DNA of 34,131 nucleotides, taken from positions 1 through 34,131 of the IMG/VR virus record IMGVR_UViG_3300045988_046485; one strand, 5' to 3'. Source of the DNA: a virus. This document shows, piece by piece, positions 1-34,131 of this stretch. A model generated the notes under the pieces. It saw only the letters and a list, made by a program, of their open reading frames with translations. It was not told where the DNA came from and ran no database searches. Made by a program: the position numbers and the translations under genes. Numbering within the stretch: the stretch's first letter is position 1; each line of letters opens with the position of its first letter.

Positions 1-53
1 CTTCTGCCTTTGCAGGTTCTTCTGCCTTTGCAGGTTCTTCTGCCTTTGCAGGT
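1..53. repeat. Terminal overlap identical to 34079-34131, built from the 18-bp tandem unit TCTTCTGCCTTTGCAGGT (2.9 units)
   Basis: Direct comparison of the first and last 53 nt shows they are identical. Because of the 18-bp period, overlaps of 17 or 35 nt are equally self-consistent. Confidence 0.9.
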
Positions 54-325
54 TCGGGCTTCGCTTTCTTCGGGGCTGCGGTCTTTGTCGGTTCGCTAAA
101 CGTAGGCGCTACGGGTTGCGATGGTTCGCTAAACGCTGGCACGGCTGTAGAGGTAGTTTTGCTGACATCTACGGGCTTTTCTTCCTTTTTAGGTGCAACT
201 ATGTGCGTTTCTACCGAAACGTCGTCAGAAGCGCCCGAAAGTAATTCTTTCAACATCTTAGTAACGTTAATAACTTCTTGTTCGTCTCTCCCGTCAAATT
301 CAAATGATAATGTAGTAACTTTCAT
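1..325 (-). CDS. N-terminal part of a wrap-around ORF (about 173 aa after collapsing the end overlap) with a Pro/Ala/Lys/Glu-rich linker containing PAKAEE x3
   Basis: ATG at 325..323 follows the genome-typical leader AAAAACAAAGATTATG. The open frame runs off the window start (MKVTTLSFEFDGRDEQEV...PKKAKPEPAKAEEPAKAEEPAKAE). It continues in frame at 34078 downward only if 1-53 and 34079-34131 are the same sequence. Confidence 0.7.
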   Translation of the reverse strand, partial: MKVTTLSFEFDGRDEQEVINVTKMLKELLSGASDDVSVETHIVAPKKEEKPVDVSKTTSTAVPAFSEPSQPVAPTFSEPTKTAAPKKAKPEPAKAEEPAKAEEPAKAE

Positions 326-657: not shown

Positions 658-699
658 CAAATATAACGCTTTTATCAATACGTTGGTTCATCCATTAAC
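658..699 (-). promoter_or_regulatory. Early promoter copy P1 (GTTAAT-N28-TATATTTG)
   Basis: Minus strand reads GTTAATGGATGAACCAACGTATTGATAAAAGCGTTATATTTG. The -7 box TAnnTTTG is at 665..658. Geometry matches the five other copies. Confidence 0.65.
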
Positions 700-913
700 G
701 TTTTTTATTATATATTGCTTCCAACATGGGTTGCATGAAGTCATATGTTACGCCCTCGTATTGGTAACTATCAAAATGCCCGTCGTGGCGTACCTCGGTG
801 AAAGGAGCGCTTTGTTCCGTGCCTTTATCGTCTAAGAATATAAGGATGTGGCTTTTCATCTCGAACTTACCGTCTTTAATCGTCTCTCTGAAAATACAGT
901 TAATCGCTTTCAT
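695..913 (-). CDS. hypothetical early protein (72 aa)
   Basis: ATG at 913 with leader GATTAAAAAGTAGAATTATG. First ORF downstream of promoter P2 and the tandem structured leader. Its stop codon lies inside the GTTAAT box of P1. Confidence 0.7.
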   Translation of the reverse strand: MKAINCIFRETIKDGKFEMKSHILIFLDDKGTEQSAPFTEVRHDGHFDSYQYEGVTYDFMQPMLEAIYNKKR

Positions 914-944
914 AATTCTACTTTTTAATCGTTTTATACTTTTT

Positions 945-1145
945 AAAAAACTTCGGTGATTGAATCCCTTTCACTTTTCAATCTTTCCCTTTCGGGTATC
1001 GTGTCCCTGGTTTCGGTGAGGAACAACCTCTGTTTTTTTTTTGTTGTCTTAAGAAAACCCGGTGATTAAATCCCTTTCACTTTTTAATCTTTCCTTTTTC
1101 GGGTTTCGTGCTTTTAGTTTCGGTAAAAAGCAACCTTGTTTCCTT
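945..1145 (-). ncRNA. Tandem pair of ~95-nt structured RNA domains (unit B 1145..1051, unit A 1038..945) in the 5' leader of the 72-aa gene
   Basis: Two homologous units each have three helices whose sequences differ between units but stay complementary. P1 is GCUUUU/AAAAGC versus GUUCCU/AGGGAC. P2 is GAUUAAA/UUUAAUC versus GAUUGAA/UUCAAUC. The closing helix is AAGGAAAC/GUUUUCUU versus AAAAAAC/GUUUUUU. Loops are conserved: YACCGAAACY and AAGUGAAAGGGA. Confidence 0.55.
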
Positions 1146-1154
1146 TTGACATTA

Positions 1155-1196
1155 CAAATATACGGCTTTTATCAATAGGTTGTACATTCCGTTAAC
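1155..1196 (-). promoter_or_regulatory. Early promoter copy P2 (GTTAAC-N28-TATATTTG)
   Basis: Minus strand reads GTTAACGGAATGTACAACCTATTGATAAAAGCCGTATATTTG, followed by GTAATGTCAAAAGGAAA, which is shared with copy P4. The predicted start is about 1147-1149, 2-4 nt before the first RNA helix. Confidence 0.65.
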
Positions 1197-1218
1197 ATTA
1201 TTTAGGAATAAAAGTGCT

Positions 1219-1574
1219 CTGTCTCACTTAAAACGTTGAAAACCAGCCGTTTAAAAAATGAGATTTCATACTGTGCCACCCCTCGAAAATGCGCTGTCTC
1301 ACTTAACGAGCTACAAACCAAGCCGTTACAACGGAAAAAGCCAACTGTGCCAGGTGAGGCTGATGTTTTCCTATAACTTTATTTGGAATATATAAAATAC
1401 TACTATACTACGAATATTTAGTAGAGGGGGTAAATTTCAATAATCACCAAAATAAAGTGTTATACCATTTTCACTGTCTCACCTGGCACACCTCTATAAA
1501 TAACTATAATACAGCAAGTTAAGTGAGACAAAGACTGTGCCACCTAAAAACCGTGCCTGGCACAGTGGCACAGT
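1219..1574. repeat. Non-coding hub R1: iteron cluster, AT-rich core, iteron cluster
   Basis: 9-mers of the family CTGT[GC][CT]CA[CG] or its complement start at 1219, 1271, 1294, 1345, 1474, 1483, 1523, 1535, 1558 and 1566. A 129-nt AT-rich gap holds the conserved block CCAAAATAAAGTGTTATACCATTTT (1447-1471). No ORF of credible length is present. Confidence 0.85.
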
Positions 1575-1583
1575 TTGAGACGC

Positions 1584-20066: not shown

Positions 20067-20108
20067 CAAATATAACGCTTTTCCCGTTATGTTGGTTCTT
20101 TCGTTAAC
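20067..20108 (-). promoter_or_regulatory. Early promoter copy P3 (GTTAAC-N28-TATATTTG)
   Basis: Minus strand reads GTTAACGAAAGAACCAACATAACGGGAAAAGCGTTATATTTG. Confidence 0.65.
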
Positions 20109-22098: not shown

Positions 22099-22437
22099 TC
22101 ACAAAGATAATGGTTTTTGCGATATGCTGGTTATTTCCTTAACTTTATTTAAGAAGAAAGTTATTGCGTTGTCCCTGCTCTCCAAATCGTCGATAACAAA
22201 AACCGTGAAGCCGAGCGCCCTTAACTTCTCATGTATATAGGCCTGTATCTTTGTTGGTTTCTTCCCGGTGGTCTTTATCTCGGCAAAGCCTACGTAACCA
22301 CCCTGGCAAATTACCATCCTATCGGGCAAACCTTTTATAAAGGTGGATAATAATTTTATTACCCACACTTTCTTTGTTCTGTTTAGGCGCTCGCTAAACG
22401 TGCGCTCTAAATCTTTTTCACTTATTATATCCATCAT
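22099..22437 (-). CDS. VRR-NUC domain nuclease (112 aa)
   Basis: GLPDRMVICQGGYVGFAEIKTTGKKPTKIQAYIHEKLRALGFTVFVI matches the VRR-NUC G.PD...f.E.K....l...Q core. Confidence 0.85.
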   Translation of the reverse strand: MMDIISEKDLERTFSERLNRTKKVWVIKLLSTFIKGLPDRMVICQGGYVGFAEIKTTGKKPTKIQAYIHEKLRALGFTVFVIDDLESRDNAITFFLNKVKEITSISQKPLSL

Positions 22438-23711: not shown

Positions 23712-23779
23712 AATTTTTCTTTTTAAAATTGTATATACTGTAATAAACAACGGAGACTTAAAAAGGTTCTCCGATTACC

Positions 23780-24868: not shown

Positions 24869-24919
24869 GATTATTATTTTTTTTTTAAATTGATATACTG
24901 TAATAACAAAAACACTTCT

Positions 24920-25330
24920 TTAATTGTTCAACGCTTCAACCATTTTTTTAAGCTCTCCGCGGCTTACGGCTATACTGAAAATCTCCGTTAACTTCTCGGT
25001 GATAACCCAGGTACCATTAAGCTTTTGGAAATACGCCTCGTTGTTGCTCGGGTTGTTTAGGCTCACAGTCTCGCCCTTTCGGGGTTTGTATTCCGCAAGG
25101 CTTGCGAGAGTCACCGCGGCTTCCTCGGGTGTACCTAAATGGACTTTCATAATATACCTTTCGGTCTCACGCGTTACCGCCTCAATGGTTATAGACCCAT
25201 CTGTATCTACCAATTTGCAAACGCCCATGCGGAAGGACTTTAATACATCGGGCTTGCCTTGTGATGTTATTTGGCTGAATGCTGATACACTTGTAAGAAT
25301 TAACACTGCTAAAACTACTAACTTTTTCAT
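24920..25330 (-). CDS. secreted/periplasmic protein with a cleavable signal peptide (136 aa)
   Basis: MKKLVVLAVLILTSVSAFSQ has a K-rich n-region, a hydrophobic core and an A-F-S-Q cleavage-type site. The mature part has no recognised motif. Confidence 0.65.
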   Translation of the reverse strand: MKKLVVLAVLILTSVSAFSQITSQGKPDVLKSFRMGVCKLVDTDGSITIEAVTRETERYIMKVHLGTPEEAAVTLASLAEYKPRKGETVSLNNPSNNEAYFQKLNGTWVITEKLTEIFSIAVSRGELKKMVEALNN

Positions 25331-25413
25331 AATCTTTTGTTTTTAAATTGTTATATGATATAAACAACGGATGCTTTGTGAAGGTTCACCGTTATCGCCT
25401 TATTAATTTTTAT

Positions 25414-25802: not shown

Positions 25803-25844
25803 CAAATATAGGGTTTATTCTGATACGTTGTATCTTTCATTAAC
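25803..25844 (-). promoter_or_regulatory. Early promoter copy P4 (GTTAAT-N28-TATATTTG)
   Basis: Minus strand reads GTTAATGAAAGATACAACGTATCAGAATAAACCCTATATTTG, followed by GTAATGTCAAAATGAAA (shared with P2). Confidence 0.65.
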
Positions 25845-32659: not shown

Positions 32660-32701
32660 CAAAGATAACAACTAATTTGTTACGTTGGTTCTTTCGTTAA
32701 C
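32660..32701 (-). promoter_or_regulatory. Early promoter copy P6 (GTTAAC-N28-TATCTTTG)
   Basis: Minus strand reads GTTAACGAAAGAACCAACGTAACAAATTAGTTGTTATCTTTG. Confidence 0.6.
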
Positions 32702-33885: not shown

Positions 33886-34131
33886 CTTGTCAAGGGGTAA
33901 TTTTCAATACGTTGTTTAAGTAATGCGAATTTAGAGGCGCTAACCTTTGAAAGTGATGTGCCCCCGAACTCCAAAAGTATAGATGCCATTTCGTCACGGG
34001 TAACGTGCCCAGACTTTACACTGGATATTACGAGGTGTTGCATTTCCTTTAAAGTAGGTGTTTCATCCTTTGTTTCTTCTTCTGCCTTTGCAGGTTCTTC
34101 TGCCTTTGCAGGTTCTTCTGCCTTTGCAGGT
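33882..34131 (-). CDS. C-terminal part of the wrap-around PAKAEE-repeat ORF
   Basis: Reads PAKAEEPAKAEEPAKAEEETKDETPTLKEMQHLVISSVKSGHVTRDEMASILLEFGGTSLSKVSASKFALLKQRIENYPLTR, then a stop. The stop overlaps the ATG of the exonuclease gene (ATGA). Confidence 0.7.
   Translation of the reverse strand, partial: PAKAEEPAKAEEPAKAEEETKDETPTLKEMQHLVISSVKSGHVTRDEMASILLEFGGTSLSKVSASKFALLKQRIENYPLTR
34078..34131. repeat. 18-bp tandem repeat x3 (TCTTCTGCCTTTGCAGGT); the last 53 nt duplicate nt 1-53
   Basis: Direct reading of the sequence. Confidence 0.9.

What the first reader, a model, noticed from the sequence alone, without database searches (positions are those of the whole stretch)
945..1145. Tandem pair of ~95-nt multi-helix RNA domains with compensatory mutations in the first early leader
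A 235-nt leader lies between promoter P2 (-7 box 1162..1155) and the 72-aa gene (ATG 913). It holds two homologous units on the minus strand, B (1145..1051) and A (1038..945). Helix sequences differ between the units but stay complementary. P1 is GCUUUU/AAAAGC (1131-1126 / 1115-1110) in B and GUUCCU/AGGGAC (1024-1019 / 1008-1003) in A: three double compensatory changes plus one U-A to U-G change. P2 is GAUUAAA/UUUAAUC (1089-1083 / 1070-1064) in B and GAUUGAA/UUCAAUC (983-977 / 964-958) in A. The closing helix is AAGGAAAC/GUUUUCUU (1145-1138 / 1058-1051) in B and AAAAAAC/GUUUUUU (1038-1032 / 951-945) in A, followed by a conserved GGU/ACC step. Single-stranded parts are nearly invariant: L1 YACCGAAACY, junction ACGAWACCCGAAA (CCC-GAAA-GGG in A) and L2 AAGUGAAAGGGA. 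The U-G pair in P1 of unit A is a C-A mismatch on the plus strand, so the fold is strand-specific and matches the direction of transcription. I do not recognise it as any known riboswitch or sRNA class. Two junction-type domains in tandem at the 5' end of an immediate-early transcript could be a ligand- or protein-sensing leader, a decoy RNA or a processing/stability module.
Basis: seen in the sequence. Interest (0 to 1): 0.8.

Follow-up and report, generated by a model that had tools for sequence, protein, structure and literature searches.

The report
New structured RNA in gut phages
Two tandem copies of a previously unclassified, roughly 100-nucleotide four-helix RNA sit at the very start of an early transcript of a gut Bacteroides phage; the same RNA recurs, with compensating base-pair changes, only in related phages, so the fold is real but what it does is still unknown.

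Summary
The window is a ~34-kb Bacteroides siphophage genome.

I collected 89 copies (55 distinct cores) from cultured Bacteroides and Phocaeicola phages, IMG/VR and human-gut metagenomes. In these, 96.4% of cells pair, nine pairs change on both sides, and the closing helix has at least five unrelated sequence solutions. Rfam 15 has no match. Among 185,579 species genomes the only true copy is on a phage-sized contig.

In 39 of 41 distinct promoter-proximal copies a canonical Bacteroidetes -7 box ends 18-19 nt upstream, so the RNA starts at about +1 with its 5' end base-paired. Only one of six early promoters in the window carries it. A sister phage has a small HExxH protein gene in the same slot. 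In EMB1 the RNA has its own promoter, no ORF and a U-run before the next promoter. At least nine unrelated genes follow it.

I conclude it is a new phage-restricted RNA family. My favoured function is an accessory, self-contained partner-binding RNA (0.4). Rivals are a put-like RNA polymerase modifier, a 5' stabiliser and a riboswitch.

The parts
1155..1198 (-). Phage early promoter: conserved upstream element (TTAACGGAATGTACAACCTATTGATAAAAGCCG) plus a Bacteroidetes sigma-ABfr -7 box, TATATTTG, at 1162..1155.
   Evidence: Sequence. It is one of six copies of a promoter-region repeat family in the window. The -7 consensus TAnnTTTG is taken from PMC7366714.
1046..1150 (-). Unit B, the promoter-proximal RNA domain (105 nt), running from the predicted +1 (GUC) to GAC. 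P0 outer 1150-1148/1048-1046; P0 inner 1145-1138/1058-1051; P0' GGU 1135-1133 / ACC 1063-1061; P1 1131-1126/1115-1110 (L1 1125-1116); P1b C1103-G1093 and C1102-G1094; P2 1089-1083/1070-1064 (L2 1082-1071).
   Evidence: Covariance-model hit 1043-1154, 126.2 bits; MFE fold; covariation in homologs; P0 test; fixed 18-nt spacing from the -7 box.
1039..1045 (-). Short A-rich spacer between the two units; the A-run continues into the 5' strand of unit A's P0.
   Evidence: Sequence.
945..1038 (-). Unit A, the distal RNA domain (94 nt), closed by an A-run/U-run helix. P0 1038-1032/951-945; P0' GGU 1028-1026 / ACC 957-955; P1 1024-1019/1008-1003 (L1 1018-1009); P1b CCC 996-994 / GGG 989-987 with a GAAA loop; P2 983-977/964-958 (L2 976-965).
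   Evidence: Covariance-model hit 937-1042, 107.9 bits; MFE fold; covariation.
914..944 (-). A-rich, unstructured translation-initiation leader of the next gene (AAAAAGUAUAAAACGAUUAAAAAGUAGAAUU). It is similar in length and sequence to the whole leader at RNA-less promoters.
   Evidence: other box-to-ATG distances are 25-45 nt.
695..913 (-). 72-aa ORF of unknown function, the first gene after the RNA in this phage. Other phages carry at least eight other unrelated first genes here.
   Evidence: no significant Pfam or PHROG hit.

Best explanation
What it is (high confidence, about 0.95): a genuine, previously unclassified family of structured RNA domains, restricted to one clade of ~33-37-kb siphophages of gut Bacteroides and Phocaeicola. 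Each unit is ~95-105 nt. A long closing stem (P0, then a purine-purine internal loop, then an invariant GGU/ACC step) carries a four-way junction with P1 (6 bp, 10-nt loop UACCRAAACU), a short variable hairpin P1b, and P2 (7 bp, 12-nt loop AAGUGAAWGGRA). The junction strands are invariant (RGAnACC and AAAG).

The promoter-proximal unit is transcribed from about +1 of a phage early promoter, and its closing stem pairs the first three bases of the transcript. A second unit often follows in tandem.

How it most likely works (inferred, confidence about 0.4): the RNA domain itself is the functional product. It would be an accessory early non-coding RNA, made in quantity at the start of infection, kept stable by its buried 5' end, and acting through its invariant loops and junction by binding a specific host or phage partner (a decoy or sponge type of host-takeover or counter-defence factor). 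It would not control the particular gene behind it.

Shown here: the fold, its conservation, its position at +1, its variable copy number (0-4 per genome), its replacement by a protein gene in a sister phage, and its stand-alone arrangement in EMB1. Inferred: that it accumulates as RNA, that it binds a partner, and what that partner is.
For: Fold and family: 55 distinct cores are 96.4% paired, against 52% or less when partners are slid; nine pairs change on both sides; 96 double-change cells against 35 +/- 4 in shuffles. RNAalifold independently finds the same helices. P0 cognate flanks pair at -7.6 kcal/mol, against -3.3 for non-cognate and -2.8 for shuffled, with at least five sequence classes.

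Phage restriction: three IMG/VR scans, one genome scan and one metagenome scan, each filtered with the covariance model, yield only ~30-37-kb phage-like contigs. Rfam has no match.

Self-contained accessory module:
(i) Only one of six homologous early promoters in the window carries it; box-to-ATG is 241 nt there against 25-45 nt elsewhere.
(ii) Sister phage BU241P2 has the identical promoter, the same first 14 transcribed bases and the same downstream leader, but a 120-aa HExxH ORF in the slot, and shows no copy by blastn.
(iii) In EMB1 a full promoter drives ~270 nt with no sense ORF over 25 aa, ending in the unit plus U9, followed by a second full promoter for the next gene.
(iv) At least nine unrelated first genes follow it at 40-219 nt.
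(v) Copy number varies from 0 to 4 per genome, and hybrid units show unequal recombination.

Stability: in 39 of 41 distinct proximal copies a canonical -7 box ends 18-19 nt before AGGUU; the other two (L060, L108) have the same 18-nt spacing behind a box with one substitution. The terminal GUC (GUCGG in Phocaeicola phages) always pairs with GAC (CCGAC).
Against: There are no expression data: neither accumulation of a discrete RNA nor any partner has been shown. No host homolog exists that the RNA could mimic, which removes the simplest decoy model of mimicking a host RNA. In most genomes the RNA is physically the 5' part of an mRNA, so a cis effect on that mRNA (stability, elongation, translation) is equally compatible with most observations. 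The fixed promoter spacing could reflect common descent of a promoter-plus-RNA block and not selection. The U-run after distal units is the 3' strand of P0, not a canonical terminator tail, so EMB1's 'stand-alone' transcript may read through into the next gene. The accessory-slot argument is positional only.
Confidence: 0.4

Rival explanations
1. A put-like cis-acting RNA that binds the transcribing RNA polymerase. The nascent 5' domain would fold, dock on the host sigma-ABfr RNA polymerase elongation complex, and make it resistant to pausing or termination across the long unidirectional early modules, as HK022 putL and putR do behind PL and PR.
For: The position parallels putL/putR, which lie downstream of the two early promoters, with putL pairing from about +3 of the transcript (PMC9378689). 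Here the RNA starts at about +1 at a fixed distance from the -7 box. It occurs behind up to two module-initial early promoters per genome, after the lysis genes and after vapE (L029 has both). It is independent of downstream gene identity. Its conserved loops and junction fit a protein (RNA polymerase) contact.
Against: Five of six early promoters in the window, and entire sister phages with the same gene order, lack it, so early transcription does not depend on it. Terminator-like sites in the early region are at chance level (20 against 16.6 +/- 4.1) and weak on the sense strand. Tandem duplication is not a put feature. The architecture differs: a ~100-nt four-way junction against ~70 nt with two stem-loops.
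Confidence: 0.2
2. A 5'-terminal stabiliser or processing module. The folded domain would bury the triphosphorylated 5' end and block 5'-end-dependent decay (pyrophosphohydrolase, then RNase E/G- or J-type entry), lengthening the life of the early mRNA. Tandem copies would add redundancy, as with tandem exonuclease-resistant RNAs of flaviviruses or the 5' stem-loops of ompA and the phage SP82 stabiliser (from my own knowledge).
For: The first three to five transcript bases are always paired in P0, and the 3' strand of P0 has adapted to whatever initial transcribed sequence the promoter provides (GUC...GAC; GUCGG...CCGAC). The same GUCAAAAGGAAA start occurs at RNA-less promoters, so the unit was fitted onto it. 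It is gene-independent and dispensable, which is compatible with a quantitative booster.
Against: A simple hairpin would suffice for 5' protection, and this model does not explain two invariant 10-12-nt loops and an invariant junction. Distal units are not at a 5' end. In EMB1 a new promoter separates the unit from the next gene. The RNase repertoire of the hosts was not examined here.
Confidence: 0.2
3. A riboswitch or protein-responsive leader. Each unit would be an aptamer for a metabolite, second messenger or regulatory protein, and would control expression of the downstream early genes.
For: The anatomy is typical of an aptamer: covarying helices around invariant junction and loop nucleotides, a variable closing helix, and tandem arrangement as in the glycine and NAD+-I classes. 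It lies in a long 5' UTR (237 nt against a typical ~23-32 nt in Bacteroides).
Against: No expression platform was found. There is no terminator hairpin or start-site-sequestering alternative, and the gene's own A-rich ~30-nt leader follows unchanged. The distance to the ORF varies from 40 to 219 nt with unrelated intervening sequence. At least nine unrelated, uncharacterised first genes follow. In two architectures a promoter intervenes. There is no Rfam class match.
Confidence: 0.1
4. Not an RNA element. The repeats would act as DNA: double-stranded protein-binding sites (iterons or operators), or a single-stranded DNA structure at an origin next to the repeat array at 1210-1580.
For: An array of short direct and inverted repeats typical of protein-binding sites lies immediately upstream. 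Family-wide MFE is the same on both strands, and G-T wobbles would also be tolerated in ssDNA.
Against: Helices are maintained by double compensatory changes while their sequences drift, which dsDNA sites do not require. The ACCGAAA/TTTCGGT triplet of unit A is not conserved in relatives (L1 ACCAAAA or ACUGAAA; junction CCCUUAAAAGG or CCCCCACCAAAAGG; 3' CACCGGG). Every copy lies sense, directly behind a promoter at fixed spacing. Wobble asymmetry favours the sense strand 27:9.
Confidence: 0.05

Closest known systems
HK022 put RNAs (putL/putR), cis-acting processive antiterminator RNAs
   Same: Both are phage-encoded structured RNAs placed directly downstream of early promoters, with related copies behind two early promoters of one genome. 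In both, pairing begins within the first few transcript bases, function resides in the RNA itself, and there is no dependence on the identity of downstream genes (PMC9378689).
   Different: put is ~70 nt with two stem-loops in a V shape (plus a triplex), whereas this RNA is a ~100-nt four-way junction. put is needed for HK022 early expression, whereas this RNA is absent from most early promoters and from sister phages. Tandem duplication and a stand-alone unit are not seen for put. No terminators needing suppression were found. The host RNA polymerase and sigma factor belong to a different phylum.
Riboswitch aptamers arranged in tandem (glycine, NAD+-I/nadA; from my own knowledge)
   Same: Both have multi-helix junction domains with invariant unpaired nucleotides and covarying stems, two homologous domains head to tail, and a location in a long 5' UTR.
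   Different: No Rfam class matches. There is no expression platform and no coherent set of regulated genes. Copy number and spacing vary freely (1-2 per array, and 0-4 per genome). The RNA starts exactly at +1.
Phage pseudo-ToxI / type III antitoxin RNA repeats (from my own knowledge)
   Same: Both are tandem direct repeats of a structured RNA behind a promoter in a phage genome, with copy number changing by recombination, and both fit an RNA-only counter-defence logic.
   Different: ToxI-type units are ~34-45 nt pseudoknots cut out by the cognate toxin and have host-encoded originals next to a toxin gene. Here the units are ~100 nt, no host copy exists in 185,579 species genomes, and there is no adjacent endoribonuclease gene.
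Exonuclease-resistant RNAs (xrRNA) of flaviviruses and bacterial or phage 5' stabiliser stem-loops (from my own knowledge)
   Same: Both are compact junction folds, often duplicated in tandem, that protect the RNA lying 3' of them. Here the 5' end is buried in the closing helix.
   Different: xrRNAs are three-way junctions with a ring-forming pseudoknot in 3' UTRs of eukaryotic viruses. No pseudoknot could be supported here, and bacterial stabilisers are simple hairpins without conserved loops.
Anonymous candidates in large catalogues of viral and gut structured RNAs (PMC10690425; PMC8040213)
   Same: Those pipelines mined IMG/VR and human-gut intergenic regions for covarying motifs, so this motif may be among the 8,495 unnamed 'DNAVirus_X' entries.
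   Different: I could not check this because the supplementary files are not held. The main text never mentions Bacteroides/Bacteroidales, tandem copies or promoters. No function or anatomy is described there.

Membership tests
Any Rfam 15 family (4,227 covariance models, including all riboswitch and self-cleaving ribozyme classes, 6S, tmRNA, Y RNA, phage RNAs) | Score at or above the family's gathering threshold, or at least a suggestive E-value | tested here: not met
   No hits in the whole window at gathering thresholds. With permissive filters and E<=10 over 600-1700, the only hits are two unrelated weak matches outside the element.
HK022 put RNA | Located just downstream of a phage early promoter, with pairing starting in the first bases of the transcript | tested here: met
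   In 39 of 41 distinct proximal copies a canonical -7 box ends 18-19 nt before AGGUU; the other two have the same spacing behind a box with one substitution. The terminal GUC is paired. putL facts come.
HK022 put RNA | About 70 nt, two stem-loops side by side, no multi-helix junction | tested here: not met
   The RNA is a four-way junction of ~95-105 nt.
HK022 put RNA | Suppresses downstream terminators or pauses in cis by binding the RNA polymerase beta' zinc-binding domain | not testable with these tools
   Only indirect evidence is available: terminator-like sites downstream are at chance level, and the RNA is dispensable in sister phages.
Riboswitch (generic) | Conserved aptamer: covarying helices around invariant junction and loop nucleotides | tested here: met
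Riboswitch (generic) | Expression platform (terminator, anti-terminator or start-site sequestration) overlapping the 3' part of the aptamer | tested here: inconclusive
   None was seen in folds of the full leader or in the terminator scan. The sequence between unit and ORF is unrelated in different architectures. Rho-dependent or non-canonical platforms cannot be excluded.
Riboswitch (generic) | Association with a functionally coherent set of downstream genes | tested here: not met
   At least nine unrelated small ORFs of unknown function follow it, and two architectures have an intervening promoter.
Type III antitoxin RNA / phage pseudo-ToxI | Short (~34-45 nt) tandem repeats with a host-encoded original next to a ToxN/AbiQ-type toxin gene | tested here: not met
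   Units are ~100 nt. There are no true copies in bacterial genomes apart from one phage-sized contig. No endoribonuclease gene is adjacent.
phi29-type packaging RNA (pRNA) | Two loops with 4-nt intermolecular complementarity; a phage with protein-primed replication and no TerS/TerL | tested here: not met
   By inspection, L1 (UACCRAAACU) and L2 (AAGUGAAWGGRA) share at most a CC/GG complementarity. Relatives encode small and large terminase subunits.
tRNA / tmRNA / tRNA-like | Cloverleaf recognised by ARAGORN | tested here: not met
   ARAGORN finds no genes in the window.

The most novel reading that the evidence does not exclude
The units are an RNA-only counter-defence or host-takeover factor. 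They would be an early, abundant, nuclease-protected aptamer-like RNA, dosed by tandem copy number, that sequesters a host protein or an immune signalling molecule in Bacteroidales. This would be a kind of phage anti-defence RNA unrelated to CRISPR-repeat mimics, tRNAs or ToxI mimics. It would sit in the same swappable slot behind the first early promoter where a sister phage carries a small metalloprotease-like protein.
Probability: 0.2. Interest if true: 0.85.

Novelty: new variant of a known kind. Interest (0 to 1): 0.62.

Why it matters
Phages of the dominant human-gut Bacteroidales are poorly understood at the RNA level, and Bacteroidota use a non-standard sigma factor, lack Shine-Dalgarno-led initiation, and lack Hfq and ProQ. 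This is a covariation-supported structured RNA with no relative in Rfam. It is confined to one phage clade, placed at the first nucleotide of early transcripts, and present in several cultured, plaque-forming phages (EMB1/EMB2, BU2-1, BX788P2, and the BM127, BD26 and BV series) whose hosts are genetically tractable. It is therefore directly testable. Whichever candidate role holds (partner-binding decoy, polymerase modifier or 5' protector), it would be the first such RNA described for Bacteroidales phages. Natural variants with 0, 1, 2 or 4 copies, and a protein-for-RNA swap at the same slot, provide ready-made controls.

Tried and rejected
1. Known RNA families: rejected after a whole-window Rfam scan and a permissive local scan; tRNA and tmRNA rejected by ARAGORN.
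2. Host-encoded original or mimicry: rejected. A pattern scan of 185,579 species genomes gave 20 hits, of which 19 score at noise with the covariance model and one is a 34-kb phage-like contig.
3. Wider family with diverged L2/P2: rejected. A scan anchored only on the 5' half found three more close members and 35 chance hits.
4. Extra cryptic copies in the window: none (filters off).
5. Antisense sRNA acting on the phage's own mRNAs: complements of L1, L2 and the junction occur no more often than in shuffles.
6. Strand assignment by folding energy: fails family-wide, so I used wobble asymmetry and orientation instead.
7. Loop-loop (L1-L2) or GGU-ACC alternative pairings: possible on paper (three invariant ACC and three invariant GG motifs; 28 of 55 isolated cores fold without the terminal GGU/ACC closing pair, and the examples printed use the junction ACC instead). 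But all partners are invariant, so there is no covariation evidence; left open.
8. My first promoter regex, which assumed a -33 TTTG, found none of the real early promoters, and one search was also badly designed. I replaced both with the repeat-family copies.
9. EMB1's ~170-nt stretch upstream of its unit as a decayed unit: not supported by the model.
10. Protein-coding reading: there is no sense ORF; the two 37-38-aa ORFs are antisense and overlap the repeats.
11. Hammerhead-like core and CRISPR-repeat handle resemblances, considered by eye: the relevant bases lie in covarying or variable segments, so I rejected both.

Full report
**1. The observation**

The window is a circularly permuted, ~34-kb phage genome: bases 1-53 repeat at 34079-34131. 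It is about 77% identical to cultured Bacteroides uniformis siphophages such as BU241P2, EMB1/EMB2 and BU2-1.

The -7 box TATATTTG is at 1162..1155. Unit B helices are at 1145-1138/1058-1051, 1131-1126/1115-1110 and 1089-1083/1070-1064. Unit A helices are at 1038-1032/951-945, 1024-1019/1008-1003 and 983-977/964-958. The ATG is at 913.

The two units align at 87% mean column identity. The unconstrained MFE fold of the 237-nt leader gives the same architecture twice (z = -1.98). The complementary strand folds no better than shuffles (z = +0.13). No sense-strand ORF of 30 aa or more crosses the region.

**2. It is a family, and the fold covaries**

- **Collecting homologs.** A sensitive blastn of the 231-nt region found copies in 35 cultured phage records, from Bacteroides and Phocaeicola phages. 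Nearly all lie in unannotated gaps; two records show an overlapping hypothetical-protein annotation. The six loci I fetched all lie on the gene-sense strand, and so do the copies tabulated later.
- **Wider scans.** Pattern scans of IMG/VR, of one genome per species and of JGI/ENA metagenomes were filtered with a covariance model built from 44 sequences. These gave 89 copies, 69 unique with flanks and 55 unique cores.
- **No intermediates.** True members score 91-132 bits and everything else scores 17 bits or less, so no intermediate relatives were found.
- **Core covariation.** On a structure-blind MAFFT alignment of the 55 cores, my four-helix structure has 96.4% of cells paired, against 29-52% when partners are slid by 1-3 columns. 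Nine pairs change on both sides. There are 96 double-change cells against 35 +/- 4 in shuffles. Five of six P1 pairs and three of seven P2 pairs covary. RNAalifold found the same helices on its own.
- **Closing helix.** Indels blur P0 in the alignment, so I tested it separately. Cognate 5' and 3' flanks pair at -7.6 kcal/mol on average, against -3.3 for flanks from different sequence classes and -2.8 for shuffled flanks. At least five unrelated solutions exist: GUC..AAGGAAAC/GUUUUCUU..GAC; GUCGG..GGGAG/CUACC..CCGAC; AUAUC..GGAUCGG/CCGAUCC..GAUAU; AAAAAACUA/UAGUUUUUU; and AAAAAAC/GUUUUUU.

**3. Anatomy**

Each unit is a four-way junction. P0 is long and interrupted by a 2x2 or 3x3 purine-purine internal loop such as AGA/GAA or GA/GA. 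It leads to an invariant GGU/ACC step (P0'). From that step emerge:
- P1, 6 bp, with loop UACCRAAACU;
- the junction strand RGAnA;
- P1b, with two invariant C-G pairs plus a variable third pair and a loop of 4-10 nt;
- the strand AAA;
- P2, 7 bp, with loop AAGUGAAWGGRA, which abuts P0' directly.

Part of this invariance was imposed by my search patterns. However, the blastn-derived Phocaeicola copies (77-80% identical overall) share the same motifs, and a scan that left L2 and P2 free found nothing different.

**4. Which strand, and RNA or DNA**

Folding energy does not separate the strands family-wide: sense is -21.8 and antisense -22.0 kcal/mol. The case for sense RNA rests on three points:
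- Wobble asymmetry at well-supported pairs is 27 G-U against 9 A-C cells.
- Every copy examined lies sense to the unidirectional genes.
- In 39 of 41 distinct promoter-proximal copies a canonical TAnn[T/C]TTG box ends 18-19 nt before AGGUU. The other two (L060, L108) have the same 18-nt spacing behind a box with one substitution.

With the published Bacteroidetes -7 consensus (PMC7366714), this geometry puts +1 at about the G of GUC, and those first bases are paired in P0.

The triplet is peculiar to unit A and is not conserved in relatives.

**5. Distribution and context**

- **Phage-restricted.** The only true hit among 185,579 species genomes is a 34,063-bp contig binned into a MAG. The true metagenome hits that carry a sample description are labelled human gut, and most come from 30-35-kb contigs; a few come from longer contigs (64.5 and 128.9 kb) or short fragments.
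- **Genome layout.** Relatives' genomes run in one direction: structural genes, lysis genes, a gap, the replication module (methyltransferase, exonucleases, SSB-like protein, DNA polymerase, VapE helicase), a second gap, then small genes and terS. The RNA sits in either or both gaps. L029 has tandem pairs in both, four units in all.
- **One promoter in six.** The window has six copies of the phage's early-promoter family. Box-to-ATG distances are 25, 26, about 27, 41 and 45 nt, and 241 nt for this one.
- **Protein-for-RNA swap.** Sister phage BU241P2 keeps the promoter, the same GUCAAAAGGAAACA start and the same downstream leader and 72-aa gene. In the slot it carries a 120-aa ORF with an HEVAH motif, giving weak SprT-like and astacin-like matches. 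It has no copy by blastn.
- **Stand-alone unit.** In EMB1 a full promoter right after vapE drives ~270 nt without a sense ORF over 25 aa. That stretch ends in a distal-type unit and U9, and a second full promoter then starts the next gene's mRNA. The 277-nt RNA folds at z = -3.25.
- **Unrelated downstream genes.** Across architectures at least nine unrelated first genes follow, 40-219 nt away, none with a known function.
- **Copy-number change.** Hybrid units (a proximal 5' flank with a distal 3' flank) and single-unit versions of the window's arrangement show that copy number changes by recombination between units.

**6. Mechanism**

Shown: a conserved fold made from +1 of an early promoter, its buried 5' end, its dispensability, its variable dosage, its independence from downstream genes, and one stand-alone arrangement.

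From this I favour, at about 0.4, that the RNA domain is itself the product. It would be an accessory early RNA that is stable because its 5' end is paired, and that acts through its invariant loops and junction on a specific partner.

The simplest version, mimicry of a host RNA, is not supported because no host copy exists. Antisense action on phage mRNAs is not supported either.

The main rivals are:
- **A put-like polymerase-modifying RNA (0.2).** It shares the striking positional logic of putL/putR. It is weakened by dispensability and by the lack of terminators to overcome.
- **A 5' stabiliser (0.2).** It explains the paired 5' end, but not the conserved loops or EMB1.
- **A riboswitch (0.1).** The anatomy is aptamer-like, but there is no platform and no coherent regulon.
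- **A DNA-level reading (0.05).**

**7. Comparison with the known, and novelty**

No Rfam family matches. ARAGORN finds nothing. Defining features of put RNA, type III antitoxin repeats and pRNA were tested and at least one fails in each case (see the membership table).

Two large catalogues of anonymous candidate RNAs (PMC10690425, PMC8040213) could contain the motif. Their supplementary data are not held here, and the main text does not describe it.

I rate it as a new family within a well-known general kind, namely orphan structured RNAs of phages. The unusual combination is a +1 start, tandem dosage, a swappable slot and phage restriction.

**8. Verdict**

The element is real, conserved and unclassified, and its function remains open. 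Because several member phages are in culture, decisive experiments are straightforward. Interest is 0.62.

Noticed in passing
window 1210-1580: Between the end of the late/lysis operon and the RNA-bearing early promoter lies a dense array of short repeats. TTAAGTGAGACA occurs in three direct copies plus inverted copies, and ACTGTGCCAC/G in four direct copies plus inverted copies, together with a terminator-like hairpin at 1566..1550. It looks like a cluster of protein-binding sites (operators, iterons or a packaging site). BU241P2 has a different repeat (TGCACAG) at the same place.
   Followed up: partly
window -7 boxes at 665..658, 1162..1155, 20074..20067, ~22109..22102, 25810..25803, 32667..32660 (minus strand): There are six copies of a ~57-77-nt early-promoter family with a conserved upstream element (TTAAC-GAAAGAACCAAC-GTA...) and a TAnnTTTG box, but no canonical -33 TTTG. 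Leaders are 25-45 nt at all but the RNA-bearing copy.
   Followed up: partly
window 23712-23749, 24872-24909, 25330-25367; L029 10010-10035; L003 1362-1380: A second repeated motif (sense strand TTGTTATTAcAGTATAtCAATTT, or GTTATTATAGTATCAAT) sits ~25 nt upstream of several ATGs, where the early -7 box would be. It may be a second promoter class. In Phocaeicola phages it directly precedes the second RNA unit and overlaps that unit's outer P0 helix.
   Followed up: no
L001 1325-1345 and most lysis-proximal loci of relatives: The sequence AAAAGAGGU|CACCAAGAC follows the units in many phages. It looks like a unit whose whole core between GGU and CACC has been deleted. The CACCAGGAC part is also present in RNA-less BU241P2. 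It may be a footprint of gain and loss by recombination.
   Followed up: partly
L129 786-1148 (minus), Bacteroides phage BU241P2: A 120-aa ORF with an HEVAH zinc-metalloprotease motif occupies exactly the slot where other phages carry the RNA. Its matches are weak: astacin (E 5e-5, just above Pfam's cut-off) and SprT-like (E 6e-5, just below it). There is no PHROG match.
   Followed up: partly
window 1-71 and 34043-34131: The window's ends overlap (1-53 = 34079-34131) inside an 18-bp tandem repeat (CTTCTGCCTTTGCAGGTT). This indicates a circular or terminally redundant assembly that breaks within a repeat-containing coding region.
   Followed up: no
L004 1036-1205 (EMB1): The ~170-nt non-coding stretch between EMB1's first promoter and its RNA unit is not a recognisable unit. 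The whole 277-nt transcript folds unusually well (z = -3.25), so it may hold another structured element. A 13-nt string identical to L2/P2 of the Phocaeicola-type units (TGAATGGAATTTA) also occurs just after the unit, in the upstream element of the next promoter (1313-1332, 9.2 bits).
   Followed up: partly
L070/L088 (contig OMGF01000181.1, 64,546 bp) and L066 (OGLQ01000047.1, 128,884 bp): Some metagenome contigs carrying the RNA are two to four times the phage genome length and hold identical copies. They are probably concatemeric assemblies and not prophages. No integrase is annotated in the cultured relative BU2-1.
   Followed up: no
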